Source: Hyphomicrobiaceae bacterium (lineage in GTDB: Bacteria; Pseudomonadota; Alphaproteobacteria; Rhizobiales; Hyphomicrobiaceae). Taken from it: 64,000 nucleotides of DNA. Below are positions 4,788 through 20,346 of the stretch, in pieces. Location of the stretch: NCBI GenBank assembly GCA_965223255.1, contig CBDCWA010000004.1, positions 1,611,514-1,675,513 of the forward strand. The letters run 5' to 3'. Positions within the stretch are counted from its first letter, which is position 1. Every line of letters starts with the position of its first letter. The translations under genes were made by a program, and so were the position numbers. The notes below the pieces were generated by a model that was given only the letters and a program-made list of their open reading frames with translations, was not told the DNA's origin and ran no database searches.

Positions 4788-5147
4788 AATCAGCTAACAG
4801 ATTTCCACCTTTCCCTACGACACGGATTATCAAGGAACGTGGCGCCAATGGATGTGGCGAACAAACGTAACTTGACCAGGTCTCTATTGTTCCGATCGGC
4901 GATCAATCTCGCGCGGCTTTTTTCTTGCACCATTGAAATGCCCCGCCGGCTTTGCGCAGAAATGCGGTCGGACACCGCCCCATATGACAGCGTTTGCCGC
5001 TGTATTGGCTGAACAATTCCGCCTGCAGACCGAGCGCGCTGGCTGCAAGTATATCGTAACGGCCGGTTCTTGGGTGGCACACATATTGCAACAAAATGGT
5101 GGTCTTAACGTAAACCGCTAAGTTAACTGAAAGCTTTGGAGGACGAG

Positions 5148-5618: not shown

Positions 5619-6305
5619 GTACCCGCCAAGAGCGATGCAAAGTAGTTTCAAAGCCGATCAGGCCAAGGGACCCTACCCTTGGCCTGCCAAAATGTCGGAG
5701 TAGATTTATTGTGGGTAGAGGAATCCGTGCCGGCGAAGCTGGTAAGAACGCGGGCTGCGACAAGCCTGCAATGGAGTTGAAGCAGCTGGACACAAAGCCA
5801 GTCAATTTATCGGATCAGGCGCAGTCGCAGATTAACTTTGTCCACTCTGACAAACAACAAACAAGTGGCACGGCGGACCAATGCGTGCCGTCGCATCAAC
5901 ACAAGCTGAGCATTTAATTCCCATGGTCAACGAGCGCTTTCGAAGGGCGCTTCCATTGTGTGGCGCAGGTGTCCGATTGCTTGATTGACCGGAGCCCCAT
6001 GCGTTCCATGGGTGTGATTCAACAGCTGACAACTAACATAGATAACATAGACGAATTTTTGCCTATTCGGCTCAAGTATCCGACATGCATGGGTTTTGCC
6101 AATTTGTCAGATGTAGGCCGCCCAACCTACGCATTGATAAATAATGTGAAAGTGCGGAGGTGGCCTGATATTTCCAAGTGCACCCAGACAAGATGGCAGC
6201 ATAGCTGCCACATCTGGCCGGTGTTGCTTGAGGCCGGAGTGGCTATTGTCTTGAATTTCCGGAAAAACCGAAGTTTTCCATTGCGAATCAATCAGTTGTA
6301 GCTTC

Positions 6306-6321
6306 TGGCACAGTCCTTGCA
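6306..6321 (+). promoter_or_regulatory. sigma-54 (-24/-12) promoter TGGCAC-AGTCC-TTGCA
   Basis: This is an exact match to the TGGCAC-N5-TTGCW consensus. It lies ~180 nt upstream of the Gly-Met-X gene and on the same strand. A sigma-54 activator is encoded in the same module. Confidence 0.8.
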
Positions 6322-6498
6322 AGCGGTTAATAGAACGTGATGCATTGGGAACGTTTTGTGAGGCCAGGACGCACAGCTGGGGGGTCTCATGTTCTGTAGT
6401 CAGTCAAGAGGCATCGGATTCGCCGCGGTTGTGAAGACGTGCCGCCAACCGAAGGAGCAGGATTAGCAATGGTAACGTTTCAAAAGGAGTTTGGTCGA

Positions 6499-7425
6499 AT
6501 GCGTGGCTACATGGCCGCGGCCGCGGTTATTGCAGCGGGCGTAATAACGGGTATGAGCAGCTCGGAAAGTACCGCGCAGGGCATGCGTGGCATGTACGGA
6601 ATGCCGGGTATGTACGGCATGGGCGGCATGCGCGGCATGCCTGGTATGGGCGGTATGTACGGCATGGGCGGCATGCGCGGCATGTACGGCATGGGTGGTA
6701 TGCGCGGCATGTACGGCATGGGCGGCGTGCGCGGCATGTACGGCATGGGTGGTATGCGAGGTCCAGCCGGCAGGTGGACTTGGGTGTGGGTGCCAGCTCC
6801 TACAAGCAGAATGAGAGGCATGTACGGTATGTACGGAATGCCGGGCATGTACGGCATGGGTGGCATGCGTGGTATGTACGGCATGTACGGAATGCCGGGT
6901 ATGTACGGCATGGGTGGCATGCGCGGTATGTACGGCATGGGCGGCATGCGCGGTATGTACGGTATGCGGGGCATGCCGGGCATGTACGGCATGGGCGGCA
7001 TGCGCGGTATGTACGGCATGGGCGGCATGCGCGGTATGTACGGTATGCGGGGCATGCCGGGCATGTATGGCATGTATGGAATGCCGGGCATGTACGGCAT
7101 GGGCGGCATGCGCGGTATGTATGGCATGGGCGGTATGCGCGGTATGTACGGTATGCGTGGCATGCCCGGTATGGGTGGCATGTACGGCATGTACGGAATG
7201 CCGGGCTTGTACGGCATGGGCGGCATGCGCGGCATGCGCGGTATGTACGGCATGGGCGGCATGGGCGGTATGTACGGCATGCGCGGAATGCCAGGTATGG
7301 GCGGCATGTATGGCATGCGCGGCATGCCGGGTATGGGCGGTATGCGTGGCATGCCCGGAACGCGAAGCTGGGCTCCTCCGCAACCACCGCAGACTCCGCC
7401 ACCGGCGCAGAAGAAGCCGAGCTAA
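6499..7425 (+). CDS. secreted hyper-methionine (Gly-Met-X)n repeat protein, collagen-like Gly periodicity
   Basis: The track ORF is 6439..7425. I prefer the ATG at 6499 because AAGGAG lies 9 nt upstream; ATG 6469 is an alternative. The signal peptide is MRGYMAAAAVIAAGVITGMSSSESTA/QG. After it come 20 and then 60 G-M-X triplets, followed by a Pro-rich tail. The gene shares strand and operon context with the downstream genes. Confidence 0.7.
   Translation: MRGYMAAAAVIAAGVITGMSSSESTAQGMRGMYGMPGMYGMGGMRGMPGMGGMYGMGGMRGMYGMGGMRGMYGMGGVRGMYGMGGMRGPAGRWTWVWVPAPTSRMRGMYGMYGMPGMYGMGGMRGMYGMYGMPGMYGMGGMRGMYGMGGMRGMYGMRGMPGMYGMGGMRGMYGMGGMRGMYGMRGMPGMYGMYGMPGMYGMGGMRGMYGMGGMRGMYGMRGMPGMGGMYGMYGMPGLYGMGGMRGMRGMYGMGGMGGMYGMRGMPGMGGMYGMRGMPGMGGMRGMPGTRSWAPPQPPQTPPPAQKKPS
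6580..6759 (+). repeat. coding tandem repeat block 1: 20 x 9-nt GGN-ATG-NNN triplet units
   Basis: Hand parse gives GMR GMY GMP GMY GMG GMR GMP GMG GMY GMG GMR GMY GMG GMR GMY GMG GVR GMY GMG GMR. Confidence 0.9.
6817..7356 (+). repeat. coding tandem repeat block 2: 60 x G-M-X units with a higher-order 9-triplet (81-nt) unit
   Basis: 59 of the 60 triplets have Met at position 2 (the exception is GLY). The unit GMG GMR GMY GMG GMR GMY GMR GMP GMY recurs at 6907, 6988 and, as a variant, 7096. Confidence 0.9.
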
Positions 7426-7629
7426 GAGGGCATGGATTTTATGTGATGACAATGTGGGTGCCGGTGGGCAAAGACAGTGCACGCGCACAATGCCCCACCG
7501 GCCTCCGCAAAAACAACCCATCGCATCGTTTCGCTCGTCAACTAACAGCAGTCAAAATCACTTATACCGTGAACCGTTGATTTGATTTTGGGTGCGGTGA
7601 GATTTTCAGAATCTGTGCGGGGGAGGTGA

Positions 7630-8220
7630 ATGTCAGACAGTACTGAGAGCTACAGCGAGGCTGAAGCGTCGTCTCCAATAGAAGAGGCGCGAGCGAAGCC
7701 TATGAAACGAGAAGCATTCAACCAAATTGCTCCGTTTCTTGTCGCTGTCGCAGTCACCGCAGGCATTATAATGGTCTCCGTGGGGGTATCGAAAAAGCAG
7801 CCGGAGCTCGAGCCAGGTCCAAGCAAAGACATCGGCCGACCTGCGGCTCCGCTGTCAAGCGCGAAAGTGCCCGCCGCAAAAGGGCCGGCCGCCACTGCAC
7901 CAAAAGATCCGCAAGTGAGAACGACACCACCAAAGGAGACGGCTTCCCGGCCCTCGAAAGTAGAACCAGTAAAATCCGAATCATCATCGACTGTTAAGAG
8001 TCTTTTTGTCGGCGGTGCAGCACCGAGTAGACGTCCCTCTGATGCTCCGTCGATCAAAGACCTTGCAAAGGACGCCGATTGGTATGCGCGTGCACTTACC
8101 GGCCTCGCAAAGCCCTACCCGCGCAGCTTCAAGTTTTTGGAAGACCAAGGTGCTTGGTATACGCCCTTCAACAAGCGCGGAATGACTGGCCCTTACGACA
8201 TTAGGAGTTGGCATGAATAA
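7630..8220 (+). CDS. single-pass membrane protein with Pro/Ala/Ser/Lys-rich linker and conserved C-terminal module (unassigned)
   Basis: GGGAGG sits upstream of the ATG. The protein has an acidic N-terminus, one TM helix (IAPFLVAVAVTAGIIMVSVGV), a low-complexity linker and a C-terminal ~70 aa paralogous to the C-terminus of the next gene. Confidence 0.7.
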   Translation: MSDSTESYSEAEASSPIEEARAKPMKREAFNQIAPFLVAVAVTAGIIMVSVGVSKKQPELEPGPSKDIGRPAAPLSSAKVPAAKGPAATAPKDPQVRTTPPKETASRPSKVEPVKSESSSTVKSLFVGGAAPSRRPSDAPSIKDLAKDADWYARALTGLAKPYPRSFKFLEDQGAWYTPFNKRGMTGPYDIRSWHE

Positions 8221-9046
8221 GAACACTGGGATGCAACAAATAGCACAGCCATTCACAAATCATGCGTGGCGACCAATGGGCGTCACTGCAATCAAATCCT
8301 TGATTCCAGAAGCGTCGCTCATAGCATCTCTATTGTGGGCAAGTCTGTTCATGATCGGCGTCGCCGACGCGCGCGCTGAAGGCGATATTGAGCAGGGCAA
8401 GAGAGTATTCAGGCTCTGCATCGCCTGCCATAAGATTGGGCCAGGGGCGAGAAACCTGAGCGGGCCAAAACTCAATGGCATTGTTGGCCGAAAGGCCGGC
8501 ACCGTTGAGGGGTTCAAGTATTCTCCCGCCAACAAGAAGGCTGGCGAACAGGGATGGATTTGGACCGAACAGGCATTGGATAAATATTTGGAGAACCCGC
8601 GCAAGGCGATGCCTGGCAATCGGATGGTGTTCATCGGGATAAAAAGCGCGAAGGATAGAAAGAATCTCATCGCTTATCTCAAGTCATTCAAGTCAAGTCA
8701 GCACCGCGGGACGACCAAGACCATGGACGCCGCATCAGCACCGGTCCAGCCGGGGGCTAAAACAAAGCGTTCGGCGAAGGCCGAGCGCGGGGGCAAATCC
8801 CAACCCAAACGGACGACGTCAGTCATATGGGTCGGTGGATCAACCCCGTCCAAACGGCCACCCGCCGCACCGCGCCTGAGAAGCTTCGAGAAGACGCCTG
8901 CCTGGTACCGCCGTGCTCTGGCAGGCCTGTCGAAGCCCTATCCGCCGAGCTTCCGGTTCCTCGAGGATCAAGGTGCTTGGTACACACCATTCAATAGCTC
9001 GGGCATGACAAGCCCTTACGATCTGCGCGCTTGGCATAAAAGTTAG
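8213..9046 (+). CDS. class I c-type cytochrome (c2-like) with N-terminal signal/anchor and the same C-terminal module
   Basis: An ATGAATAA overlap links it to the previous gene. It has a CIACH haem motif and a PGNRMVF distal Met region, typical of c2/c550 cytochromes. Its C-terminus is paralogous to 8002..8217. Confidence 0.8.
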   Translation: MNKNTGMQQIAQPFTNHAWRPMGVTAIKSLIPEASLIASLLWASLFMIGVADARAEGDIEQGKRVFRLCIACHKIGPGARNLSGPKLNGIVGRKAGTVEGFKYSPANKKAGEQGWIWTEQALDKYLENPRKAMPGNRMVFIGIKSAKDRKNLIAYLKSFKSSQHRGTTKTMDAASAPVQPGAKTKRSAKAERGGKSQPKRTTSVIWVGGSTPSKRPPAAPRLRSFEKTPAWYRRALAGLSKPYPPSFRFLEDQGAWYTPFNSSGMTSPYDLRAWHKS

Positions 9047-9116
9047 CTTCGCGCAGTGGGTGCCGACGGAGCCCCGGCGCGGTGTGAGAAACAGCATAAG
9101 AATATGAGATAAGAAG

Positions 9117-9977
9117 ATGATGCACAGAACGCTAACCTTGGCAGTGAGTTGCCTGTCCGTCGTTCTTGTCACAGGCAGCATTTATTCGTTTGCATGGTCA
9201 GAGAGTGGCACACGCAAGGGCGATTATGCTGCTGCGGTATGGAACAAACTTCATTTCTCACCAGCCATTGATCGCGCAAGAGATGAGCAGTGCCTTTCAT
9301 GCCATAGCGAGATCCTCAAGCAAAAAGTGCGCACCAAGTCTCCCGCCGGGATAAAGGCGAAAGATTCAATTGCTTGGTATCAGGCAATGGATACGTACAC
9401 AGGAGATCAAGAAACGTTTCATTGGCGGCATATTTCTTCGCCTTTTGCAAAGGCTGTCATGAAGCTGTCGTGCAATTTCTGTCACCGTGGACACGATCCG
9501 CGTGAAGAGGCGCCAGGCTCGAGTGCAACCGCACCGCAAATTGGCAAAGCGACTGGGTTTGCCTTGCGCAAGACGGTTGATCCTTCGCAAACGTGCCTCA
9601 AGTGCCATGGCAGCTTTCCCTATAAGATCATGCAATTGCCGGGACCTTGGCACGAAGTGCGACCGTTAATGGAGTCACCGGAAATAAAAAACGGCTGCCT
9701 AGGCGCTTGTCACAAGGTAGCATTCCGCACCAATCGCCATAACGTGACCTATCTCAATCGCGACAAGATAGAGGAATTGTCCAAGGACAACTCGGACACG
9801 TGCTTTGGCTGTCATGGCGGAAGGGCATGGTACCGGAATTCCTACCCTTATCCGCGAAATCCCTGGCCCGGCATGGACAAAGAGATTCCAAAGTGGGCCA
9901 AGGATAGGCCCACCCAATCCGAAGCGCGCTTTCGCATTGGCGACAAACAAGGCGCCGCGGCTGGCAAGACGAAATAG
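9117..9977 (+). CDS. multihaem c-type cytochrome (4 CxxCH + 1 CxxxCH)
   Basis: The motifs are CLSCH, CNFCH, CLKCH, CFGCH and the variant CLGACH. The N-terminal hydrophobic segment could be a signal peptide or an anchor. A NapC/TorC-like quinol-dehydrogenase role is only a guess. Confidence 0.8.
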   Translation: MMHRTLTLAVSCLSVVLVTGSIYSFAWSESGTRKGDYAAAVWNKLHFSPAIDRARDEQCLSCHSEILKQKVRTKSPAGIKAKDSIAWYQAMDTYTGDQETFHWRHISSPFAKAVMKLSCNFCHRGHDPREEAPGSSATAPQIGKATGFALRKTVDPSQTCLKCHGSFPYKIMQLPGPWHEVRPLMESPEIKNGCLGACHKVAFRTNRHNVTYLNRDKIEELSKDNSDTCFGCHGGRAWYRNSYPYPRNPWPGMDKEIPKWAKDRPTQSEARFRIGDKQGAAAGKTK

Positions 9978-10012
9978 CGGGCACGGCAGCAAAGTGTTGG
10001 AGGCAAAACCAT

Positions 10013-12547
10013 ATGAGTGTGAAGATTGACGTCCTCAGATCAGCTTTAAACCTGACGCGCCGCCGTTTCGTGCAACTGTCGGCGGCAAGTGCAGCCGCCG
10101 GTGCGGCAGGGCTTAAGCCGGAGCAGGCACAGGCGTTCGCCTATGAACCATATCCGACTGACGACGAGCTGACGACGATAGTAACAAGCTGCGCGCATAA
10201 TTGCGGATCGCGTCACGCACTCGTTGCACACAAGAAAGGTGATGTAATTGTCAGGCTGTCATCGGATGACGGACGCTATCAGAAGGATGGAGAATACGGC
10301 AAGGATACAGAGGACGAGCCGCAGGTGCGCGCCTGTCTGCGCGGACGGTCGTATCGTTCGCGGCTCTACTCGGCAGAGCGCCTGCTCCATCCCATGATTC
10401 GGGTCGGAGCGCGCGGTGAAGGGAAATTCAAACGCGCCTCCTGGGATACGGCGTTGGACTACATTGCCGAGCGCATAGTGAACATTAAGAATACCTATGG
10501 GCCAACTGCAATCCTGGACCAAAGCTATGCCGGCGCCTCATGGGGCGTCTTGCATCGCTCGGATCAGATCGAGGGGCTATTAGGGCGCTTTCTCGGCATT
10601 TTCGGTTGCCGCACGACGTCCTGGTCCGTGCCTTCGTATCAGGGAACGACTTTTTCGTCAGAAACGACCTTTGGCACGATTGAGGATGGAAATGAGGATG
10701 ATACGTTTGCCCACTCCAAGCTGATGATCATGTGGGGCTGGAATCCGGCCTACACATTTCATGGCGGCAATACATTCTACTATATGCGACTTGCAAAGCA
10801 GCGCGGATGCAAATTTGTCTTGGTGGACCCGCAATACACAGATTCAGCGGCCTCCTATGATGCCTGGTGGATTCCAATTCGGCCTAATACGGATGCGGCA
10901 ATGCTCGCGGCAATGGCCCACTATATCTTTGTCAACAAACTTCAAGATCAGAGCTTCATCAATCGCTTCTGCCTTGGCATGGACGCGGGCACAATGCCGG
11001 CATTCGCCACCGACCAGGAAAATTTCAGAGACTACATTCTTGGCAGGTATGACGGTCAACCTAAGTCTCCGGAATGGGCGCAAGAGATCTGTGGTGTAAA
11101 GGCCGATGACATCAAGAAGCTCGCGCGGATGTATGCGACGACAAAGCCAGCGGCATTGAAAGCAAGCTGGGCGCCAGGGCGATGCGCATACGGCGAACAG
11201 TATAGCAGGATGGCCGCGGCCCTTCAGGCAATGACCGGAAACATCGGTGTCTTGGGCGGCAGTGCTGAAGGCGTCGGCAAGGCCTGGAAAGCACAGGCTG
11301 CTGCGGGACCGGTAGATCAATACGCCAACATACATGCCGCTGCGATCAAGTCAGATAGATGGGCCGACTGCGTCCTTAATTACCCAAATGTGCGCCGCGA
11401 AGATGTCGGCTTGTGGCCGAAGTCGGGCGCCATGGATGGGGTAATACCGAATATTCGAGCGATTTGGTGGCAAGCGTCCGACTGGTTTAACCAGCTCCCC
11501 AACATCAACAAACAAATAGAAGCGATCCAAAAGCTTGATCTCGTCGTCTGCCAAGATTCGACCATTACGCCATCTGGGATATGGGCCGATGTGCTTCTGC
11601 CGGTTGCTACCCACTTCGAGCGCCACGATGTGGCCCTGCCTTGGTACAAGGGCCACTACTATATTCATAGGCCGAAGGTGATCGAGCCGCTTGGAGAAAG
11701 CAAGACCGACTGGCAGATTTTCACCGAGCTCGCGTTCCGACTCGGATTTGGCAAGACCATGAATCCACTTGCCTCCCGCGACTATTTCCACAACGATGAT
11801 GCGACCGACGAGGCGTATCTCAGGGATTGGTGGGAAAAGCGCGTCATGGGGTATCAAGGAGTTACGATGCCCTGGGATGAGTTCAAGAAACGCGGCATCT
11901 ACAAATTCCGACTGGACAAGCCCCATGTTGCCTTTCGCGAGCAGATTGAGGAGGGCAAACCATTCAAGACCACCTCCGGCAAGATCGAGATATTCTCTAT
12001 CAAACTATCGAACATTAAGGACTTTCGCCAAACGCAGTTTGGTTATCCTATCCCCGCAATCCCAAAATGGATTGAGCCATGGGAAGGCAGGCGCGATCCA
12101 AAGGTGCGCCAATATCCATTCCAGATGATCACGCCACACCCACGTTGGCGAACGCACTCAATATTCAACAACATCGGGTGGCTTCGGGAGACCTATGAGC
12201 AGGAAGTGACAATCAATGCGGACGATGCCGAGAAGCTCGGCATTAAGACAGGGGACAACGTCTACATCTGGAATGAGCGAGGCGCGACGGTGACACCAGC
12301 CTATGTGACACAACGACTGATGCCGGGCGTCGTTGTGCTTTACGAAGGCGCTTGGATGGATCGGGACACAAAGGGTATCGACCGGTCCGGCAATCCGGAT
12401 TTCCTGACCCTGGATGCGCCCAGCCCTGCAGGGGCATTTGCATACAATACGCTGTTGGTAAACATGCAGAAGACCGATCTGCCGCATCGACCCGGCTGGG
12501 ACAAGCTCGCAACGGCACGCAGCCACGTCTTCCGGCGTGACAATTGA
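10013..12547 (+). CDS. Tat-exported molybdopterin oxidoreductase catalytic subunit, DMSO reductase family (DmsA-like)
   Basis: GGAGG RBS. The twin-arginine motif is TRRRFVQLSAASAAAGA. The N-terminal FS0-type motif is C-AHN-C-GSR-H ... QVRACLRGRS. As far as I recall E. coli DmsA, the protein is collinear with it (e.g. RVGARGEGKFKRASW). Length is 844 aa. Confidence 0.85.
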   Translation: MSVKIDVLRSALNLTRRRFVQLSAASAAAGAAGLKPEQAQAFAYEPYPTDDELTTIVTSCAHNCGSRHALVAHKKGDVIVRLSSDDGRYQKDGEYGKDTEDEPQVRACLRGRSYRSRLYSAERLLHPMIRVGARGEGKFKRASWDTALDYIAERIVNIKNTYGPTAILDQSYAGASWGVLHRSDQIEGLLGRFLGIFGCRTTSWSVPSYQGTTFSSETTFGTIEDGNEDDTFAHSKLMIMWGWNPAYTFHGGNTFYYMRLAKQRGCKFVLVDPQYTDSAASYDAWWIPIRPNTDAAMLAAMAHYIFVNKLQDQSFINRFCLGMDAGTMPAFATDQENFRDYILGRYDGQPKSPEWAQEICGVKADDIKKLARMYATTKPAALKASWAPGRCAYGEQYSRMAAALQAMTGNIGVLGGSAEGVGKAWKAQAAAGPVDQYANIHAAAIKSDRWADCVLNYPNVRREDVGLWPKSGAMDGVIPNIRAIWWQASDWFNQLPNINKQIEAIQKLDLVVCQDSTITPSGIWADVLLPVATHFERHDVALPWYKGHYYIHRPKVIEPLGESKTDWQIFTELAFRLGFGKTMNPLASRDYFHNDDATDEAYLRDWWEKRVMGYQGVTMPWDEFKKRGIYKFRLDKPHVAFREQIEEGKPFKTTSGKIEIFSIKLSNIKDFRQTQFGYPIPAIPKWIEPWEGRRDPKVRQYPFQMITPHPRWRTHSIFNNIGWLRETYEQEVTINADDAEKLGIKTGDNVYIWNERGATVTPAYVTQRLMPGVVVLYEGAWMDRDTKGIDRSGNPDFLTLDAPSPAGAFAYNTLLVNMQKTDLPHRPGWDKLATARSHVFRRDN

Positions 12548-13233
12548 TGATTGGGGACACAGATATGGCAAAGGCGCCGATTGACAAGAAGAAGATAAAG
12601 AACGCGGTAAAACGCAAGAAACAAGACGTTTACAAGCCAGTGGTTCCCCACCAACAGCTCGGGTTTATCCATAACAATGTCGATTGTATCGGGTGCAGGG
12701 CTTGCGAGATTGCTTGTAAGGATAAGAATGGGTTAGCACCCGGACCAAGATTCCGCAGAGTACAATATATCGAGGGTGGCACATATCCCGAGGTGTTTGC
12801 ATACAAGGTAAATATGTCGTGCAATCACTGCGCTGAACCTGCCTGCCTTCCCGCCTGTCCCACCGGCGCGATCTACAAACGGAAAAAGGATGGTATTGTC
12901 GACATTGACTCGACGTTGTGCATCGGATGCCGGCGCTGCGAGGCCACATGCCCCTACGGCGCACCGCAATACATCCCTGATCAAAATATCGTTTCTAAGT
13001 GTAATATGTGCGTGGATGAGATTGATGCCGGTCGTAAGCCCTATTGCGTGATGGCCTGCATGATGCGCGTGCTCGATATTGGTCCGATAGACAAATTGCG
13101 TGATGGGACTTGGGACACTAAAGCCAAGGCAAAGCAGGAGAAAGTTGTACGTCAGGTGCAGAATATGGCGGATCCGGAGCTAACCAATCCATCGATCGTA
13201 TTCGTCGCGCATAGCAAGGGCAAAGTGAAATAG
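12544..13233 (+). CDS. 4x[4Fe-4S] ferredoxin-type electron-transfer subunit (DmsB-like)
   Basis: Four Cys clusters are present (CIGCRACEIAC, CNHCAEPACLPACP, CIGCRRCEATCP, CNMCVDE...CVMAC). The start overlaps the stop of the A subunit (TTG 12544 / ATG 12547). ATG 12565 with a GGGGA RBS is an alternative start. Confidence 0.85.
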   Translation: MMIGDTDMAKAPIDKKKIKNAVKRKKQDVYKPVVPHQQLGFIHNNVDCIGCRACEIACKDKNGLAPGPRFRRVQYIEGGTYPEVFAYKVNMSCNHCAEPACLPACPTGAIYKRKKDGIVDIDSTLCIGCRRCEATCPYGAPQYIPDQNIVSKCNMCVDEIDAGRKPYCVMACMMRVLDIGPIDKLRDGTWDTKAKAKQEKVVRQVQNMADPELTNPSIVFVAHSKGKVK

Positions 13234-13302
13234 GCGGTATGCTGCCGTGTTCGTGAACCACCCTGCGCCTTTTCCAATGCGCACTCACCTAGAGCGTTTC
13301 AA

Positions 13303-14130
13303 GTGCACAAACCTATCAGAGGTGCCCACCATGCTGGCCCTAGCCAGCATGCAGGGCGGGAGAATTCATTCGTGCAAGACCATGGACAAAGCGAAGCTGA
13401 ACTTCTTGCTGCTTTCAGAGAGTCGGTCGATGATGACCTGAAGTTGATTGCAGCACTGCACGATCGCGAGATCGATGCACCTGCGATCGCGCAGCTCAAA
13501 CAACTGAGGTTTCCCAGTGGCCTCGGTTTTAATCTGTCAAAGTCGGCAGCGAAACAAGCCCAACGACAAATGATCGATGCTCTTGCGGATCTGCCGGATG
13601 TACCCGATCAAGCGCTTCTCGATGAACTCGCCGTCGATTTTGCAGCAATCTATCTGACCTATCGCTACCGGGCCGCGCCAACGGAATCCGTGTGGCTCGA
13701 TAAGGACCATCTCGAGCGCCAGCAACCTATGTTTCAGACCCGAGCCGCCTACCGCCGAAGAGGTCTGAAGGTCGTCAACTGGAACGTGAGGTCTGAAGAT
13801 CACCTGGTCACTCAACTGCTTTTTGTGGCGCATTTGATTGGCGAATGTCGCGACGAAGTGGCGCTAGCGGATGCTGCAGCGTTCCTTGACCAGCACTTGC
13901 TCCGTTGGATTGACATCTTCGCCTTGAGTGTAGCGCAACGTTGCAGCGCTCGTTTTTATAGCGCCCTCGGCTCGCTGACAGCTGCCTATTTGGACGAGCT
14001 GCGCGATGTTCTCGCAGAGATCCTGGATGAACCGCGACCCCAAATCGTAACAGCCGATCAGATTCTGCAGCCACCCGACGAAGCCGAGCAGCACACTCCA
14101 ATCGCACCGGCCGTTGGTCCAAGCTGGTGA
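13303..14130 (+). CDS. TorD/DmsD-family redox enzyme maturation chaperone
   Basis: The EDHL-type motif (SEDHLVTQLLFVAHL) and helical layout are typical of the TorD family. It sits immediately after the A and B subunits. The GTG start is uncertain. Confidence 0.65.
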   Translation: MHKPIRGAHHAGPSQHAGRENSFVQDHGQSEAELLAAFRESVDDDLKLIAALHDREIDAPAIAQLKQLRFPSGLGFNLSKSAAKQAQRQMIDALADLPDVPDQALLDELAVDFAAIYLTYRYRAAPTESVWLDKDHLERQQPMFQTRAAYRRRGLKVVNWNVRSEDHLVTQLLFVAHLIGECRDEVALADAAAFLDQHLLRWIDIFALSVAQRCSARFYSALGSLTAAYLDELRDVLAEILDEPRPQIVTADQILQPPDEAEQHTPIAPAVGPSW

Positions 14131-14151
14131 TCAACCAGCGAATGGGTGCCG

Positions 14152-15534
14152 TTAGTCGCTGCGTTCACTAACGCTAAGTCCATGCTTCTTGAGCAACCTG
14201 TACGTGTTGCGCTCGCTTATTCCCAATACTTCAGCAATCCGCGAGCGATGTCCGCCGTATTTTACGACCAATCTAGCCAGGTAATCTCGCCGGATTTCCT
14301 CTAACGTTGGCTCGTGATCAAACATGAACGCCGCCGTTTCACAACGAGACGACTGAGCGCTGGGTGGAGCACTCAACCCCAGGTGCCGTGCTCGGATAGT
14401 AACGTCGTCGCCAGATACCAGGATTGCCCGCTCTATGACGTTTCTAAGCTCGCGAACATTGCCTGGCCATGAGTATGCGGTAAGCACCTCAATGGCATCC
14501 TTGCTCAATATCTTCTGCCGGGCGCGCTGAAAAGATCTGGTATCCAAAAACAGCTCTGACAGCACCGCGATGTCCTCGCGCCGCTGTCGCAGCGGTGGTA
14601 CACTGATCACAACTGTAGCCAAGCGATAGTAAAGGTCAGATCGAAATCGTCCCTCGTCGATGGATGCTATAAGGTCACGATTAGTTGCAGCGACGATGCG
14701 CGCGTCACTGATTATCTTCTGGGTGCCGCCGACGCGCCGAAATTCTCCGGTCTCAAGCACGCGCAGTAGTTTTGCCTGCATCGACGCAGGCAATTCGCCG
14801 ATTTCGTCAAGGAACAGTGTTCCGCCCTCGGCAATTTCGATCAAGCCCTGCTTGCGCCGGTCCGCTCCTGTAAATGCCCCTTTCTCGTGACCAAACAACT
14901 CCGATTCGAACAGCGTCTCTTGTAATGTCGTTGCATCCACAGGCACAAAGTTGGAATCCGCACGATCGCTCAGCTGGTGAATGGCTTTTGCTACAAGCTC
15001 CTTGCCGACGCCACTTTCGCCCTCGATTAGAACCGTTGAATCGCTTGGTGCGACCAACTCAATAAGATGTGCCATTTCCTCAAAAGCATTGCTCCGTCCA
15101 ACCATAATCTTCTTGATGTTGGGATTTAGTTGTTCTCGGCAATACTGGTAGCTGCGCCTCAAGGAGCTGTTTTCCAATGCTCGGCCAATAGCAAACTCCA
15201 GTTCGGACGGATTGATCGGTTTCGTCAGATAGTCAACCGCACCAGACCGGATAGCTTCGACTGCATGCCGAATGCTTCCGTACGCCGTCAGAACGAGCAC
15301 AGGGCATTGAGCTGAAAGTTCCGGCAAACACTGGATACCATCGATGTCGGGAAGTCTGATATCGAGGAGAGCAAGAGCGGGATCATGAGTCTCCAGCGTC
15401 ACCTTGGCTTCCTCCCATGAATAGACGCCAGTTGGCTGATAGCCCATCGCCCGCAGTTGTTCGATCAGAAAATGATTAAGTGCCTTGTCGTCCTCTATGA
15501 CAAGAAGATGCTTACCTTTCTTTCTTTGCGTCAT
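14152..15534 (-). CDS. sigma-54-dependent response regulator (NtrC family enhancer-binding protein)
   Basis: It has a receiver domain (LDIRLPDIDG), an AAA+ Walker A (GESGVGKE), the GAFTGA sigma-54 contact loop and a C-terminal Fis-type HTH. Confidence 0.9.
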   Translation of the reverse strand: MTQRKKGKHLLVIEDDKALNHFLIEQLRAMGYQPTGVYSWEEAKVTLETHDPALALLDIRLPDIDGIQCLPELSAQCPVLVLTAYGSIRHAVEAIRSGAVDYLTKPINPSELEFAIGRALENSSLRRSYQYCREQLNPNIKKIMVGRSNAFEEMAHLIELVAPSDSTVLIEGESGVGKELVAKAIHQLSDRADSNFVPVDATTLQETLFESELFGHEKGAFTGADRRKQGLIEIAEGGTLFLDEIGELPASMQAKLLRVLETGEFRRVGGTQKIISDARIVAATNRDLIASIDEGRFRSDLYYRLATVVISVPPLRQRREDIAVLSELFLDTRSFQRARQKILSKDAIEVLTAYSWPGNVRELRNVIERAILVSGDDVTIRARHLGLSAPPSAQSSRCETAAFMFDHEPTLEEIRRDYLARLVVKYGGHRSRIAEVLGISERNTYRLLKKHGLSVSERSD

Positions 15535-17435
15535 GATAGTTCTTTCGCTACTTCTGCAGAAGGCAATGTGACAACGAATCTAGTCCCCTCACCAACCACG
15601 CTCGTCACATCTAACCTGCCGCCGCTTCGTTTGACTATTTCTTGGCATATTGAAAGCCCAAGCCCTGTTCCGTGAACGCCGTCGGCACGTTTACTCCAGA
15701 AGGGATCGAATATTTTGGCGAGATCGCTCTTCTTGATCCCCACGCCAGTGTCCTCAAAGACCAGCTCGACCACATCTTCGCAGACTGAGCCCGAAACCAG
15801 CAGGCGCCCGCCATCAGGCATGGCATGCAGAGCGTTCTGTGCGATGTTTAGCACCATCATTCTCATCTCGCTGTCGGAGCCGATTGATCTGAGTTCACTC
15901 TCAAGATCCATCGATATGTCGACCTCTGACTTCAGTGCCTCAGCGTTGAGTAGGGAGAGAACCTCGAACACGACGTTGTTGAGATTTACAAGTTCGCGGT
16001 GCTCGCTTGCTGGTGCGCTAAGCTTCAAAAGACGCGACGTAACTTCTATGCAGCGCGTTATCTGATCTTCGATAATGTCAAGATACTTGCTTGCCTTCTC
16101 GTCCCGACCCTCCCGTAGAGCTCTTTTCGCTGAGTCGAAGCCCAAAAGTATGGACGCAAGAGGGTTGTGAATCTCGTGTGCAACACCCGCGGCCAGGAAG
16201 CCAATTTCCGACAGCCGCTGCTCTTGCGATAGCCGCACGTCCTTGCTCAGGTCTCTAATGACCTCCACAACGAATTTTTTTTGCGTGTCGTCAATAGTGA
16301 TTTCAAGCAGCGCTGCTGAGACCTCGACCGGGATTTCTTTCTCATCGGCGCTCACATGAGAATGCCGACAAGTCAAGACCTGCCCTCCTTTCTGCAGTTC
16401 ATGCAGCGGACAGCTGACCAAGCTCGCTGGGCAAGGCGATTCACGAGAATGGCTGGACCAATAGCAGGGTCGCTGTACCACCTCAGACCGCGCGCGATGC
16501 TGTTGTTCGCAGAATGCGCGGTTAGCCTTGACGACCTGATAGTTCATGTCGATCACGCGCACTCCATCGGGCATTATGTCGATCAGGTCCTGCAAATACC
16601 GCTCTCTGGTCTCTATATTGTGTACAGCTTGAGCGATACGAGCGGACATGTCGTTAAAGGCACGTCCAAGCCGCCCAATCTCATCGGAGCTTTTTAGCGG
16701 CACACGGTGACCCAGTTGGCCCAGCGACATCTTATCCGCTGCCTCGGTCAGTCCTTTCACAGGTGCGAGCACGAACCAGTTAAGCAGAAATCCGATGCCA
16801 CCAATGGTAGTCAGCACGACTGCTATTCCGGCACCACTCAGCATCAATACTGCAAACATTGTGTCGCGTCTGATGTTCGTTGCGTCATAGTCAACGACGA
16901 GAATTCCGTTTATTGGGTGGGTATCAATCTGGCCATGGCATTTAGTGCATGGGCCGCGGTTGCGGACCGGGTTTATGCTGCGCAGAATGTCACCAGCAAC
17001 GGCGTCCGCAACGAAGGCCGAACGGGGCCCGTGCCCTTTTATTGTTGCCTTGCAGTCTGGGCACAACTCACCTGCTTCGAGATCAAAACGTCGGCCAAGC
17101 TGTATCTTGTTGCTCGCAAATCTGACTTCACCATTCGGCGCAAGAATCATGACACCGGAAATATTCTCCTGTTCACCCAATCGTTCGACCATTTTCCTCA
17201 GGCCAACGATGTCACGATTGAGCATCGCATTCTCAAGCCCCAGCTGCAGCAGGCGGTTGACCTCCGTGGATGCTGCGCTGCGTTCCCTCAGGATTTGATC
17301 ACGATAGGAGAGAATGACCAACGCAAGGAAACAGATCGATGCAAACGTTAGGCTTGCGACAAGGATCAGGGTTATTTTCCGCCTTAGGCTTGCAGCAGAC
17401 CACCTGGCTAGGTCATTCCATAACTGTCCCATCAT
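15531..17435 (-). CDS. sensor histidine kinase: periplasmic Cys/haem-motif domain, HAMP, PAS, HisKA, HATPase
   Basis: Two TM helices flank a ~150-aa loop containing CPDCK and CTKCH. It also has a HAMP domain, a Cys-rich PAS-like domain, the H-box GVAHEIHNPL, and G-boxes DTGVGI and GTGLGLS. There are 4-nt overlaps with both neighbouring genes. Confidence 0.9.
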   Translation of the reverse strand: MMGQLWNDLARWSAASLRRKITLILVASLTFASICFLALVILSYRDQILRERSAASTEVNRLLQLGLENAMLNRDIVGLRKMVERLGEQENISGVMILAPNGEVRFASNKIQLGRRFDLEAGELCPDCKATIKGHGPRSAFVADAVAGDILRSINPVRNRGPCTKCHGQIDTHPINGILVVDYDATNIRRDTMFAVLMLSGAGIAVVLTTIGGIGFLLNWFVLAPVKGLTEAADKMSLGQLGHRVPLKSSDEIGRLGRAFNDMSARIAQAVHNIETRERYLQDLIDIMPDGVRVIDMNYQVVKANRAFCEQQHRARSEVVQRPCYWSSHSRESPCPASLVSCPLHELQKGGQVLTCRHSHVSADEKEIPVEVSAALLEITIDDTQKKFVVEVIRDLSKDVRLSQEQRLSEIGFLAAGVAHEIHNPLASILLGFDSAKRALREGRDEKASKYLDIIEDQITRCIEVTSRLLKLSAPASEHRELVNLNNVVFEVLSLLNAEALKSEVDISMDLESELRSIGSDSEMRMMVLNIAQNALHAMPDGGRLLVSGSVCEDVVELVFEDTGVGIKKSDLAKIFDPFWSKRADGVHGTGLGLSICQEIVKRSGGRLDVTSVVGEGTRFVVTLPSAEVAKELS

Positions 17436-17908
17436 TGCGATGCCAGCCGAATGATAAAGCTCTCAGTAGGAACAAGATCCGTATCAATCCGGCAAAGCCT
17501 TTCGGTTTGGTCAGCAAGATCATCCTGGAAGACGGTGATCGGAACGACGACCGGCACCAGCCATTCCCGCGCAGCAAATGCCTTAAGCCAGTCCCGCCGC
17601 TCCTCAGAGGCCTTTGTCGCGAGAATGGATTCCGCGTTATGCACAACGAGCCCGCCACGATTCGATTTCTTTTCGATGTACGCGGTCAGAGCCGATAGTG
17701 GAACCTGGCCGGCCTCCCATCCCAGGGGGAGAAGTTTTTCCGCCCGAAAGTCTATGAAGGTGAAGTCAAGAGCATTCGTCATGGCGCGTATTAACTCTGG
17801 CCGGTACTCGGGAAAAACGACGAAGAAACCTCCACGTCCAGCAGCCTGGGCAATCATCTCGGCAACCGGCCTTATCCAAGGTAATAGAGGCTCTCGAGAC
17901 TGCATCAT
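17432..17908 (-). CDS. hypothetical protein co-transcribed with the kinase
   Basis: The track ORF starts at 17962. I prefer ATG 17908 because it forms an ATGA start/stop overlap with the upstream ferredoxin gene. The stop overlaps the kinase start. I recognised no motif. Confidence 0.55.
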   Translation of the reverse strand: MMQSREPLLPWIRPVAEMIAQAAGRGGFFVVFPEYRPELIRAMTNALDFTFIDFRAEKLLPLGWEAGQVPLSALTAYIEKKSNRGGLVVHNAESILATKASEERRDWLKAFAAREWLVPVVVPITVFQDDLADQTERLCRIDTDLVPTESFIIRLASQ

Positions 17909-18993
17909 CGCAACACTTGAAACAGTTTGTCGTAATGCTGCGTCTTCAGGCAGATCCGACATCGCAACTCGGCCGATCCCTGGCTCTCAGGCATCAAAAA
18001 CACAGTTCCGCACGAGCGGCATTGCGCAGAATCAAGTTGAATGGATGTCGGGTCGCCGCGCTGCCAGGACTTGACGGCGACTGCATCAGTATCACAAACG
18101 TCAGCGCACAGCCTGCAGCCGGTGCAATGTGACGGAGCGATCTTGTAGGCGGGCCGGCCCGCGTGATCAGTCACAAGTGTGATTGCATGAGTTGGGCATA
18201 TGCGAATACAGGCATTGCACCCGACGCAGTTCGCAGTATCAATTTCGGGAAGATAGGGGTTCAAAGGCATCCCGCTTTCGCCGGCTGGAAGTCGCTCCGC
18301 TGCCGGAACCTGACGTTGTGTCTTCAAGTTGGAATCCACGTCCACCAACCTGCTAACGGCCACAAAAAAACCGCGCCGGGATGCACGCATCGTTGTTGAA
18401 CGTATAGTATGCCATTCGCCAGGTGTGTACTCAGTGATGCTGAATTCATCCATGCCTCGGTCCGCCCAGAGACGTTGGAGGTTGATAACCGCTTGATCAA
18501 ACTGATGACTCAAACCACGCTCGCAGCTCAGGCATGCTTCGCGGCTCACGATCAGCTGTCGCAAACCTTGTGCATATAGTTGAGCCAGTTCATCTATTCC
18601 GATCGAATTCAGGCAAGGTCGTACACCAGGTCCACCTTCTTCGACGGCGACGGAACAGGCAAACAGTCCAATCTTGTCATCGTCATAAGATCTCGCAGCG
18701 TTGGCCAGTGGCAATTCAATCGCAGTCTGCGGGCAGACCGGCACACAGATGCCACATCCATCGCAAGCTTGTTCGTCAAATCCGAGAGCATCCTCCTCTA
18801 AGACCCACGCGGCACGTGGACAAGCATCAACGCAGTCTTGGCAACTAGCGTTGGACACGATCGCATGAACGCAACGATCAGCATCAATAACTGGAAGGTC
18901 TGCGGGCAGATGCGACAGCTTATCGCTTCGCGGAAGGGCAAAGCTGCGTCCTGGCAACCCAGACTCAGTCGTGTCCGAACGATTCTTCGACAT
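17905..18993 (-). CDS. polyferredoxin-like protein (two 2x[4Fe-4S] dicluster domains + C-terminal CxxC...CxxC ribbon)
   Basis: Motifs are CQDCVDACP, CDGCGICVPVCP, CVGCNACIRICP, CTGCRLCADVCD, and CRSCG...CRIC. Start is either ATG 18993 (MSKNRS) or the upstream start at 19083. Confidence 0.75.
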   Translation of the reverse strand: MSKNRSDTTESGLPGRSFALPRSDKLSHLPADLPVIDADRCVHAIVSNASCQDCVDACPRAAWVLEEDALGFDEQACDGCGICVPVCPQTAIELPLANAARSYDDDKIGLFACSVAVEEGGPGVRPCLNSIGIDELAQLYAQGLRQLIVSREACLSCERGLSHQFDQAVINLQRLWADRGMDEFSITEYTPGEWHTIRSTTMRASRRGFFVAVSRLVDVDSNLKTQRQVPAAERLPAGESGMPLNPYLPEIDTANCVGCNACIRICPTHAITLVTDHAGRPAYKIAPSHCTGCRLCADVCDTDAVAVKSWQRGDPTSIQLDSAQCRSCGTVFLMPESQGSAELRCRICLKTQHYDKLFQVLR

Positions 18994-19148
18994 CACGTTA
19001 TCGCTTCCGGCGCCCGGTTGCCCTCGCTCGCGCTCGCTGCGCGCACCTACTCGCGTGGCAGCCGACCCGGCGGGCACGGGCACTTCCGACGATTATGAAA
19101 GACAGCTATTCCAACCCGAGAAACAGCCGCCACGACACGCTGTCGTGA

Positions 19149-19164
19149 TGCAACTCCTGTGCCA
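19149..19164 (-). promoter_or_regulatory. sigma-54 (-24/-12) promoter TGGCAC-AGGAG-TTGCA (minus strand)
   Basis: This is an exact consensus match on the minus strand. It lies 66-156 nt upstream of the polyferredoxin start candidates. Confidence 0.8.
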
Positions 19165-20049
19165 TCACCAATACTCTTTGGCGTCCTGTGTCGACGGCTC
19201 GGCAGATAGCCTTTCAGCGCCGTGACTTGGGCAGGAGGAGCACTGAGGCTGACAAATTGTCATGGGTCGGAGGCGCTGAATATGCCAGTCTGTCAGGTCT
19301 GCGCCAAGCATGTTTGATGCTAGTCTCGGATCGACCATATCGAGTGTCTGGAGTCTCTCCGAAAGAGGGGTCCAATAGATCGGTCTTAGCTATGCCCGAC
19401 AACTGGAGGGCAAATATTTGGGGGCAGACCAACCATCGGATATGCGACGACATTTTGCCGAGTTAGCGAAAGCTTCGCAGCAAGAACGCACGAGCTTCTG
19501 TGCTGCCCACTGAGAGCGGACATCACCCGGCGTGGGGCTGACATCGCGGTGGGGGCAAACGAGAAAGTCACACTGAAGCATTGGCTTACAGCCATGGATG
19601 GATGAGCTGGACCGATCGGTACAATTGTAGCTAATGTCCCACTTGGCGTTCAGGACCAGTTCCATCACCAGCAAGTGCCGGCAGTTAGTCTCGATTTGAT
19701 GAGAATTCCTCGTCAATATCGATGAGCCGGCGCCAGAGCATACAAGCGCGGTGCACGAACACGACGCCAGATCAGACACTTGCACTTCCTTTCCATACGG
19801 CCCCGGCACGCTTCTTTTGATCGAGTCGGGAATCAAATGCCATACGCATCGTAGGCTTTGCTCATGGAGCGCGGGCAGTCATGCCAAGTATTTGGCAAGA
19901 TTTGACGCACATCAAAAACTACGCGCAAGACTTGCATGGAACTTGCATGGAAAGAGCAAATTGCCTGCAGAAGTGGAGAGAGCCGTTGGTCCATGATGGT
20001 GATGTGCAGGCCCGTCGCAAAGGGACGGCTCATTTTAGGAGGAAGTAAG

Positions 20050-20346
20050 ATGGCTGCAATGTTCGCGCGAATCCGTACGCCTGTCGCGGGGAAGCACGTC
20101 GACGGTTATAAGTTCGCTCAGGAGCGGGCGAAGGCGATGAAGGATGTTTTGGGAATTGACCAAGAGGTCTATGTGCGCCTGGGTGGTCCGGTCGGCCAGG
20201 TGATTGCGGTCTCGAAGCACAACAGCATCGCCGAGATCGAGGAAGTGAAGAAGAAAGTGATTAAGGCAGACGGCGAGGGAAAGTTACCGACAGCGCCGGC
20301 GGGTACCTTCTCTGAGATCGTCGATCACGTCTGGCTGCAGGAATAA
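20050..20346 (+). CDS. small hypothetical protein (98 aa)
   Basis: AGGAGG lies 7 nt upstream of the ATG at 20050, which is internal to the track ORF 19936..20346. I recognised no motif. Confidence 0.55.
   Translation: MAAMFARIRTPVAGKHVDGYKFAQERAKAMKDVLGIDQEVYVRLGGPVGQVIAVSKHNSIAEIEEVKKKVIKADGEGKLPTAPAGTFSEIVDHVWLQE

What the first reader, a model, noticed from the sequence alone, without database searches (positions are those of the whole stretch)
19149..19262. Second perfect sigma-54 promoter drives the regulatory operon itself (positive autoregulation)
On the minus strand, TGGCAC-AGGAG-TTGCA (19164..19149) lies just upstream of the polyferredoxin-unknown-kinase-activator operon. A 13-bp palindrome TGACAA-A-TTGTCA (19250..19262) sits ~90 bp further upstream. 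I found only two exact TGGCAC-N5-TTGC matches in 64 kb, and both sit at the heads of the two convergent operons. That placement argues against chance and implies a feed-forward circuit.
Basis: seen in the sequence. Interest (0 to 1): 0.65.

Follow-up and report, generated by a model that had tools for sequence, protein, structure and literature searches.

The report
Sigma-54 promoter feeding back on its regulator
This is very probably a real sigma-54 promoter with two conserved activator-binding sites that lets a two-component regulator switch on its own operon, a classical circuit design found here in an undescribed regulon.

Summary
The count is wrong. The window has three exact TGGCAC-N5-TTGC sites (5075, 6306, 19164; 0.29 expected). 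All three are intergenic and point at a gene.

Comparative evidence supports function. In related gene clusters from at least six other genomes, TGACA-N3-TGTCA sites lie about 100 and 133 bp upstream of the sigma-54 promoter. A weight matrix built only from other genomes ranks 19250-19262 and 6097-6109 as the two best sites in 64 kb. The operon-encoded NtrC-type activator is the only one in the window, and its DNA-binding helix is nearly invariant across orthologues.

So positive autoregulation is well supported, but it is feedback, not feed-forward. The detached regulatory operon is also derived. In 15 of 17 related loci the polyferredoxin gene follows the enzyme's chaperone gene. Only the window and its closest relative L019 carry a separate promoter. 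One detached relative (L109) has none.

The design is the classical glnALG/zraSR type. The promoter is a new member of a known kind. The regulon itself appears undescribed.

The parts
19149..19164 (-). Sigma-54 promoter core, TGGCAC (-24) N5 TTGCA (-12); GG at 19163-19162, GC at 19151-19150
   Evidence: Exact consensus. One of 3 exact matches in 64 kb against 0.29 expected. Intergenic, and oriented towards the polyferredoxin gene.
19250..19262 (.). Proximal upstream activating site (UAS), TGACAATTTGTCA, a perfect palindrome identical to the family consensus; starts at -98 relative to the T of TGGCAC
   Evidence: consensus of 17 sites; the best PWM hit in the whole window (22.3 bits; shuffle maximum 17.8), using a matrix built only from other genomes.
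19283..19295 (.). Distal UAS, TGACAGACTGGCA on the minus strand; starts at -131, 33 bp (three helical turns) from the proximal site
   Evidence: 12.4 bits. The same two-site geometry occurs at L020 (-133/-99), L023 (-134/-100) and L019 (-122/-89).
19138..19138 (-). Predicted transcription start, 12 nt downstream of the C of the -12 GC
   Evidence: Inferred from the standard sigma-54 promoter geometry. Not measured.
19131..19147 (.). DNA palindrome CACGACAGCGTGTCGTG centred on the predicted start site; its core GACA-N3-TGTC resembles the UAS core
   Evidence: Read. Not conserved in L019. Possible weak operator; speculative.
17905..18993 (-). Polyferredoxin gene (about four 4Fe-4S motifs). The start is revised to ATG 18993, giving a leader of about 145 nt.
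   Evidence: Pfam Fer4 families. The N-terminus MSKNRSDTTESG matches L019's MVNSSDTTQSG. Homologues are 330-360 aa. Normally the gene after the chaperone gene.
17432..17962 (-). Unknown 176-aa protein, overlapping the polyferredoxin gene
   Evidence: No Pfam, NCBIfam or PDB match. Orthologue present in L019, L020, L022 and L023; absent in L028, L029, L105 and L107.
15531..17435 (-). Sensor histidine kinase: TM, periplasmic domain with an invariant CxxCHG motif, TM, HAMP, PAS, HisKA, HATPase
   Evidence: Pfam. Alignment of 8 orthologues shows CxxCHG invariant.
14152..15534 (-). NtrC-type response regulator and sigma-54 activator: receiver, AAA+ domain with GAFTGA, Fis-type HTH
   Evidence: Pfam Response_reg plus Sigma54_activat at 2.9e-67. 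GAFTGA at residue 219, and HTH LGISERNTYRL nearly invariant among orthologues. Best PDB relatives are NtrC4, NtrC1 and ZraR.
6306..6321 (+). Sigma-54 promoter of the structural operon (TGGCACAGTCCTTGCA)
   Evidence: Orthologous promoters at L020:2946, L021:3342, L022:1355, L023:3428 and L106:3054.
6097..6109 (.). UAS of the structural promoter, TGCCAATTTGTCA, at -209; a weaker site AGACAAGATGGCA lies at 6186-6198 (-120)
   Evidence: second-best PWM hit in the window (20.6 bits).
6439..14130 (+). Target operon: Met/Gly-rich repeat protein, unknown secreted protein, cytochrome c, multihaem cytochrome, DmsA-like Mo enzyme, DmsB-like FeS subunit, NarJ/TorD-like chaperone
   Evidence: Synteny conserved in 15 or more loci.
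5075..5090 (+).

Best explanation
The site at 19164..19149 (minus strand) is a functional RpoN (sigma-54) promoter. It transcribes polyferredoxin, the 176-aa unknown, the haem-c-type sensor kinase and the NtrC-type response regulator as one operon, from about 19138. Sigma-54 holoenzyme binds the -24/-12 element as a closed complex. Two dimers or a higher oligomer of the phosphorylated response regulator, encoded as the last gene of the same operon, bind two sites three helical turns apart: TGACAATTTGTCA (19262..19250) and TGACAGACTGGCA (19295..19283). The regulator contacts the polymerase by DNA looping and uses ATP hydrolysis (GAFTGA loop) to open the promoter. The same regulator activates the convergent structural operon from the 6306 promoter through TGCCAATTTGTCA at 6097. 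The signal that turns on the DmsA-like enzyme and Met-rich protein operon therefore also raises kinase and regulator levels (positive feedback). It also co-induces the polyferredoxin accessory, which in most relatives is simply the next gene of the structural operon. Shown here: the sequence elements, their statistical excess, their conservation and geometry across genomes, and the activator's domain make-up. Inferred: binding of this regulator to these sites, the start site, RpoN dependence, and the direction and strength of the feedback.
For: (1) The exact 16-nt consensus occurs 3 times in 64 kb against 0.29 expected, and every copy is intergenic and correctly oriented.
(2) The motif TGNCA-N3-TGNCA lies 60-260 bp upstream of the sigma-54 promoter in every orthologous locus that reaches the promoter. 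Positions: L020 -133/-99; L023 -134/-100; L022 -193/-103; L021 -98 (and -119 with one mismatch); L106 -102 and -67; window structural promoter -209 (and -120 with one mismatch). The window regulatory promoter has the modal geometry, -131/-98. Of 19 exact motif matches in 230 kb, 10-11 lie in these short zones.
(3) A PWM built only from non-window sites ranks 19250-19262 (22.3 bits) and 6097-6109 (20.6 bits) first and second in the window. The maximum in 30 shuffles is 17.8 bits.
(4) The closest relative L019 has the same detached, convergent layout. It keeps two UAS sites 34 bp apart followed about 83 bp later by a GG-N10-GC element, TGGTGCAATTCTTGCT. The sequence between these islands is not conserved, and the proteins are only 45-70 % identical.
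(5) L021, whose kinase-regulator pair is divergent, has a sigma-54-like element plus a UAS pointing into it.
(6) The regulator has receiver, AAA+ with GAFTGA, and HTH domains. It is the only sigma-54 activator encoded in the window, and its recognition-helix region is nearly invariant among orthologues, as a shared DNA motif requires.
(7) In tandem loci no terminator or sigma-70 promoter separates the structural genes from the regulator genes. Regulator expression from the sigma-54 promoter therefore appears to be the ancestral state as well.
Against: There are no experimental data, and no rpoN gene lies inside the window, so its presence in the genome could not be checked. A simple scan found no sigma-70-type promoter anywhere in 13900-20000. 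The source of the basal activator that any sigma-54 positive loop needs is therefore unidentified. No IHF-like site lies between the UAS and the promoter. L019's -24 element is degenerate, with 3 mismatches. L109, another detached polyferredoxin-kinase operon, has neither promoter nor UAS, so the feature is not universal. That this particular regulator binds the motif is inferred from co-occurrence only.
Confidence: 0.78

Rival explanations
1. This is a split-operon patch, not a designed feedback loop. An inversion detached polyferredoxin-unknown-kinase-regulator from the end of the structural operon. The promoter is kept mainly so that the polyferredoxin (a NapF-like maturation or electron-transfer accessory of the Mo enzyme) remains co-induced with the enzyme. 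Feedback on the kinase and regulator is an inherited by-product. This is not exclusive of the best explanation.
For: The polyferredoxin gene follows the chaperone gene on the same strand in 15 of 17 related loci. This holds even in L108, where the kinase is of another type and no NtrC-type regulator is present. Only the window and L019 are inverted. The protein gives a weak NapF-family hit. In tandem loci there is no terminator or internal promoter in the gap.
Against: In tandem loci the kinase and regulator genes are also downstream of the sigma-54 promoter, so feedback would be ancestral and not accidental. L021 appears to give its separate kinase-regulator pair its own sigma-54-like promoter and UAS, although its polyferredoxin stays with the enzyme genes.
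Confidence: 0.3
2. The promoter is functional and sigma-54 dependent, but it is activated by a different enhancer-binding protein encoded elsewhere. That would be a cascade and not autoregulation.
For: The third perfect promoter at 5075 has no family-type UAS. At least one other activator probably exists in the genome, since only one is encoded in the window. Binding was not tested.
Against: The UAS motif co-occurs with this regulator family in every locus examined. It is shared with the structural promoter that this two-component system is positioned to control. The HTH is conserved along with the motif.
Confidence: 0.1
3. The match is a chance or relic sequence that is not used. The operon is transcribed from an unrecognised sigma-70 promoter.
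For: A sigma-54 loop needs basal expression from somewhere. L109 manages without such a promoter. Sequence motifs alone never prove use.
Against: A perfect 16-mer together with two high-scoring UAS sites at the family-typical distance is very unlikely by chance. The arrangement is conserved in L019 despite unconserved flanks. No sigma-70-like promoter was found.
Confidence: 0.05

Closest known systems
glnAp2 / glnALG (NtrB-NtrC) of enteric bacteria
   Same: A sigma-54 promoter has two tandem activator sites about 100-140 bp upstream, three helical turns apart. The kinase and NtrC-type regulator genes lie downstream in the same transcript, giving positive autoregulation (textbook knowledge). 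The domain make-up of the regulator is the same.
   Different: The DNA motif differs: NtrC binds TGCACC-N5-GGTGCA, whereas the motif here is TGACA-N3-TGTCA. The signal and regulon also differ. glnALG has documented sigma-70 promoters (glnAp1, glnLp) for basal expression, and none was found here.
zraP-zraSR (HydHG) of E. coli
   Same: A sigma-54 two-component envelope-stress system in which the regulator activates both a gene for a periplasmic protein and its own zraSR operon from separate sigma-54 promoters sharing binding sites (own knowledge). ZraR is among the closest solved relatives (1ojl, E 2.5e-76).
   Different: The zra promoters are divergent and share one intergenic region. Here the two promoters are 13 kb apart at the outer ends of convergent operons. 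The sensor here has a periplasmic CxxCH motif, and the regulon encodes a Mo enzyme and cytochromes.
MrpX-YedY1 hypochlorite-scavenging system of Azospira suillum (PMC4436054)
   Same: A periplasmic methionine-rich protein is encoded next to a molybdenum sulfoxide reductase and msr genes, and is induced as a unit.
   Different: It is regulated by the ECF sigma/anti-sigma pair SigF/NrsF, not by sigma-54 (PMC4623255, PMC13488963). Its reductase belongs to the sulfite-oxidase family (MsrP/YedY), not the DmsAB type. The Met-rich proteins here are long GM-repeat proteins.
pcrPSR control of perchlorate reductase
   Same: A histidine kinase plus an NtrC-type regulator are encoded beside a DMSO-reductase-family enzyme operon and are required for its expression (PMC4623255). 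Sigma-54 dependence is from my own knowledge.
   Different: The enzyme clade differs (PcrA is type II, NarG-like). There is no polyferredoxin and no Met-rich proteins. Homology of the sensors was not tested here.

Membership tests
Sigma-54 (RpoN)-dependent promoter | GG at -24 and GC at -12 with fixed spacing, matching TGGCAC-N5-TTGCW | tested here: met
   Exact 16/16 specified positions at 19164..19149.
Sigma-54 (RpoN)-dependent promoter | Located upstream of, and oriented towards, a gene, in non-coding DNA | tested here: met
   Located 66-81 nt upstream of the longest ORF starts and 156 nt upstream of the conserved ATG at 18993. No convincing ORF overlaps it.
Sigma-54 (RpoN)-dependent promoter | Cognate enhancer-binding protein with a GAFTGA loop is available | tested here: met
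   Gene 14152-15534: Sigma54_activat at 2.9e-67, GAFTGA at residue 219.
Sigma-54 (RpoN)-dependent promoter | Upstream activating sites about 80-200 bp upstream, conserved in orthologous promoters | tested here: met
   Sites at -98 and -131. The same motif and geometry occur in L019, L020, L021, L022, L023 and L106.
Sigma-54 (RpoN)-dependent promoter | rpoN present in the genome, and an RpoN-dependent transcript start | not testable with these tools
   rpoN is not within the 64 kb window. The source genome could not be retrieved.
NtrC-class response regulator (bEBP) | Receiver domain, AAA+ sigma-54 interaction domain and C-terminal HTH | tested here: met
   Pfam Response_reg 2.1e-20, Sigma54_activat, AAA_lid_14. 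Full-length match to NtrC4 4l4u. The Fis-type HTH sequence is conserved.
Positively autoregulated sigma-54 two-component system (glnALG / zraSR type) | The regulator's own gene is transcribed from a sigma-54 promoter carrying the same binding motif as its target promoter | tested here: met
   The two best PWM hits in the window lie upstream of the 19164 and 6306 promoters. Binding itself was not tested.
Positively autoregulated sigma-54 two-component system (glnALG / zraSR type) | An activator-independent basal promoter supplies the initial regulator | tested here: inconclusive
   No sigma-70 consensus match in 13900-20000. The scan is simple, and the organism's promoter preferences are unknown.
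   Only one activator is encoded. The topology is a regulator acting on its own operon and on the target, which is feedback.

The most novel reading that the evidence does not exclude
The promoter and its TGACAATTTGTCA sites mark a previously undescribed and widely distributed sigma-54 regulon. A kinase with a periplasmic haem-c (CxxCH) sensor and an NtrC-type regulator would switch on secreted proteins that are 20-32 % methionine, together with a highly conserved DmsAB-like molybdoenzyme fed by c-type cytochromes, with MsrA often adjacent. This would be a periplasmic methionine-based oxidant (for example hypohalite) sink with its own respiratory-type reductase. In this lineage the system would be made switch-like by positive feedback, possibly capped by a weak operator palindrome on the start site.
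Probability: 0.4. Interest if true: 0.7.

Novelty: new member of a known kind. Interest (0 to 1): 0.35.

Why it matters
The result gives a concrete, testable regulatory map for a conserved but uncharacterised gene cluster. The map comprises a defined binding motif (TGACAATTTGTCA), two target promoters, a predicted start site and a feedback loop. The motif can be used to find further regulon members genome-wide. The promoter can serve as a reporter to identify the unknown signal sensed by the haem-c-type kinase, which would reveal what the Met-rich protein and DmsAB-like enzyme system does. The comparison across genomes also shows how an operon split was repaired: the detached half gained the same promoter and activator sites, which preserved co-regulation.

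Tried and rejected
- The genome-contig scan with the single polyferredoxin protein gave one true relative (L001). The other hits were generic ferredoxin matches, and the source genome was not found.
- The metagenome scan with an alignment gave only 6 true orthologues among 80 loci. All were tandem and too short to reach the structural promoter.
- Leader RNA structure: the window leader is not more stable than shuffles (z -1.3). L019 has a strong hairpin, but it is not shared. A riboswitch or attenuator idea was dropped, and Rfam finds only a tRNA in the window.
- IHF site between UAS and promoter: none at the regulatory promoter. The only nearby match (6286) is too close to the 6306 promoter to be informative.
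- Sigma-70 promoters and intrinsic terminators around and inside the operon: none convincing.
- A family-type UAS or other palindrome upstream of the 5075 promoter: none.
- FNR/CRP identity of the palindrome was rejected on spacing: the motif is 5-3-5, not 5-4-5 or 5-6-5. It also has a constant position about 100 bp upstream of sigma-54 promoters.
- The unknown 176-aa protein has no Pfam, NCBIfam or PDB relative. Structure prediction was not attempted because it does not bear on the promoter.

Full report
**Observation**

On the minus strand the sequence reads ...GGTGA TGGCAC AGGAG TTGCA TCACGACAGCGTGTCGTGG... TGGCAC lies at 19164..19159 and TTGCA at 19153..19149. About 90 bp further upstream is the perfect 13-bp palindrome TGACAATTTGTCA (19262..19250).

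The statement that only two exact TGGCAC-N5-TTGC matches exist is wrong. There are three, at 5075(+), 6306(+) and 19164(-), against 0.29 expected, and no shuffle out of 100 reaches three. All three extend to the full TGGCAC-N5-TTGCA. All are intergenic and point at the next gene. Relaxing the pattern to two mismatches gives a number of hits that is no longer above chance (47 against 43). The signal therefore lies in the perfect sites.

**Surroundings**

The minus-strand operon below the promoter encodes four proteins:
- a polyferredoxin with several 4Fe-4S motifs;
- a 176-aa protein with no detectable family;
- a HAMP-PAS histidine kinase whose periplasmic domain carries a CxxCH motif;
- a full-length NtrC-class response regulator (receiver, AAA+ domain with GAFTGA, Fis-type HTH).

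The convergent plus-strand operon is headed by the 6306 promoter. It encodes:
- a secreted protein that is 25 % Met and 33 % Gly;
- an unknown secreted protein;
- a cytochrome c and a multihaem cytochrome;
- a TAT-signal DmsA/YnfE-like molybdoenzyme;
- a DmsB-like FeS subunit;
- a NarJ/TorD-like chaperone.

The N-terminus of the polyferredoxin in the closest relative (MVNSSDTTQSG) matches the window's ATG at 18993 (MSKNRSDTTESG). The real start is therefore probably 18993, and the leader is about 145 nt. The leader is not unusually structured.

**Comparative test**

Homologues of the polyferredoxin (33-46 % identity) were traced to their contigs, and further loci came from collection scans. 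The whole module recurs in genomes with GC content from 51 to 67 %.

Every locus that reaches the head of the structural operon has a near-perfect sigma-54 promoter there: L020:2946, L021:3342, L022:1355 and L023:3428, each with one mismatch. L106 has weaker ones, with two mismatches each, at 1859 and 3054.

Upstream of each promoter lie sites matching TGNCA-N3-TGNCA. Positions are given relative to the T of TGGCAC:
- L020: -133 and -99
- L023: -134 and -100
- L022: -193 and -103
- L021: -98, and -119 with one mismatch
- L106: -102 and -67

The consensus of 17 sites is TGACAATTTGTCA, which is exactly the window palindrome.

The window's regulatory promoter has sites at -131 and -98, the modal two-site geometry with 33 bp (three helical turns) between sites. 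The window's structural promoter has TGCCAATTTGTCA at -209 and a one-mismatch site at -120.

Of 19 exact motif matches in 230 kb of window plus loci, 10-11 lie in these short upstream zones.

As a non-circular test, I built a weight matrix from sites of the other genomes only and scanned the window. The two best hits in 64 kb are 19250-19262 (22.3 bits) and 6097-6109 (20.6 bits). Both exceed the best score in 30 shuffles, 17.8 bits.

The activators' recognition-helix region, LG(I/V/M)SERN(T/L)YRL, is almost invariant, as a shared DNA motif requires. No other sigma-54 activator is encoded in the window.

**Is autoregulation conserved?**

Synteny mapping shows that in 15 of 17 related loci the polyferredoxin gene directly follows the chaperone gene on the same strand. 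Where present, the kinase and regulator genes come next. These gaps contain no same-strand terminator, no sigma-70 promoter and no sigma-54 or UAS element. The regulators are therefore most simply co-transcribed from the structural sigma-54 promoter. On that reading (an inference), feedback is the ancestral state.

Only the window and its closest relative L019 (Mo enzyme 86 %, regulator 70 % identical) have the four-gene block inverted and detached. L019 keeps two sites, TGACAAAATGGCA and GGACATTTTGTCA, 34 bp apart. About 83 bp downstream is a GG-N10-GC element, TGGTGCAATTCTTGCT. The intervening sequence is not conserved, which is a typical phylogenetic footprint.

L021 has a divergent kinase-regulator pair. 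It shows a sigma-54-like element (TGGCAAAGCACTTGCT) with a UAS at -79 pointing into that pair.

There is a counter-example. L109 (GC 67 %) has a detached polyferredoxin-kinase operon preceded by a Crp/Fnr-family gene, with no sigma-54 promoter or UAS. L024 has an orphan polyferredoxin gene with neither element. The dedicated promoter is therefore a lineage-specific solution.

**Mechanism**

The best-supported model has these steps:
1. Sigma-54 holoenzyme sits at 19164..19149 as a closed complex.
2. The phosphorylated regulator binds the two sites at 19262..19250 and 19295..19283, oligomerises, loops to the polymerase and opens the promoter.
3. Transcription starts near 19138 and runs through all four genes.
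4. The same regulator drives the 6306 promoter. One signal therefore raises the enzyme system, the polyferredoxin accessory, and the kinase and regulator themselves.

This is positive feedback of the glnALG/zraSR type. It is not a feed-forward loop, which would need a second regulator.

Caveats:
- No sigma-70-type promoter was detected for basal expression.
- No IHF-like site lies between the UAS and the promoter.
- rpoN could not be checked.
- Binding is inferred, not shown.

A 17-bp DNA palindrome (CACGACAGCGTGTCGTG, 19147..19131) is centred on the predicted start. Its core GACA-N3-TGTC resembles the UAS core. It might be a low-affinity operator that caps the loop, but it is not conserved in L019, so I give it little weight.

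**Comparison with known systems and novelty**

The design is classical. Tandem NtrC sites upstream of glnAp2 drive glnA-ntrBC, and ZraR activates both zraP and zraSR (own knowledge). ZraR, NtrC1 and NtrC4 are the nearest solved relatives.

The binding motif and the regulon appear to be undescribed. The published Met-rich peptide system (MrpX/YedY) is controlled by an ECF sigma factor and uses a different enzyme family (PMC4436054, PMC4623255). A 2026 review of sulfoxide reductases lists two-component and ECF control but nothing like this cluster (PMC13488963).

The promoter itself is a new member of a known kind, and I score its interest at 0.35. The more novel reading concerns the regulon it controls. 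That reading is a sigma-54 and haem-c-sensor controlled periplasmic Met-rich protein plus DmsAB-like reductase system, supported. I give it a probability of 0.4.

Noticed in passing
window 5075-5090 (+) and ORF 5136-5618: A third perfect sigma-54 promoter (TGGCACACATATTGCA) lies 46 nt upstream of a secreted 160-aa protein. The protein has a cytochrome c' fold (Pfam E 6e-11) but no CxxCH haem motif. There is no TGACA-N3-TGTCA site within 350 bp and no homologue in related loci, so it probably answers to another activator.
   Followed up: partly
window 6439-7425; L020 4051-4368; L021 3849-4898; L022 1638-2480 and 3167-4216; L023 3990-4694: Every structural operon encodes secreted repeat proteins made of GM(S/Y/R/G)GM units, with 20-32 % Met and 27-40 % Gly. 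They may be a sacrificial methionine sink for oxidants, recycled by the DmsAB-like enzyme. A rival idea is periplasmic Cu/Ag binding.
   Followed up: partly
window 7630-8220 and 8213-9046 (C-terminal parts); L020 3003-3332; L021 3438-3752; L022 4432-4737; L023 3487-3798: A conserved, uncharacterised secreted domain of about 60 aa has the motif FLxDQGAWYTPF...PYDIRGWH and no Pfam family. In the window it occurs twice, once fused to a cytochrome c.
   Followed up: no
window 4080-4787; L019 8712-9440; L020 1837-2571; L105 10226-11368: A methionine sulfoxide reductase gene (msrA, or msrAB in L105) lies next to the cluster in four genomes. The window copy has an N-terminal membrane or signal segment.
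   Followed up: partly
window 10013-12547: The DmsA-like subunit is 72-86 % identical across genomes with GC content from 51 to 67 %, while the polyferredoxin is only 33-45 % identical. Its N-terminal cluster motif reads C-x3-C-x3-H, with the third Cys replaced by His. It scores below the NCBIfam DmsA/YnfE cut-off (615 against 778 bits).
   Followed up: no
window 15531-17435 (kinase residues about 40-200): The periplasmic sensor domain has an invariant CxxCHG motif in all 8 orthologues, which suggests a covalently bound haem c as the sensing cofactor.
   Followed up: partly
window 14130-14152: The two convergent sigma-54 operons end only 21 bp apart, and no intrinsic terminator is recognisable. 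Induced transcripts may overlap at their 3' ends.
   Followed up: no
L019 9895-9937: A perfect 17-bp-stem hairpin (CCTTAAATCGGAACCGG...CCGGTTCCGATTTAAGG) lies in the leader of the L019 regulatory operon (fold z = -5). It is absent from the window leader and may be a repetitive extragenic element.
   Followed up: no
window 19131-19147: A DNA palindrome, CACGACAGCGTGTCGTG, is centred on the predicted transcription start. Its core resembles the activator-site core and it may be a weak operator. It is not conserved in L019.
   Followed up: partly
window 19300-19935: About 640 bp upstream of the UAS pair has no convincing ORF. The whole interval between the polyferredoxin gene and the next credible gene (19936-20346, no Pfam family) is unusually long, at about 850-940 bp.
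   Followed up: no
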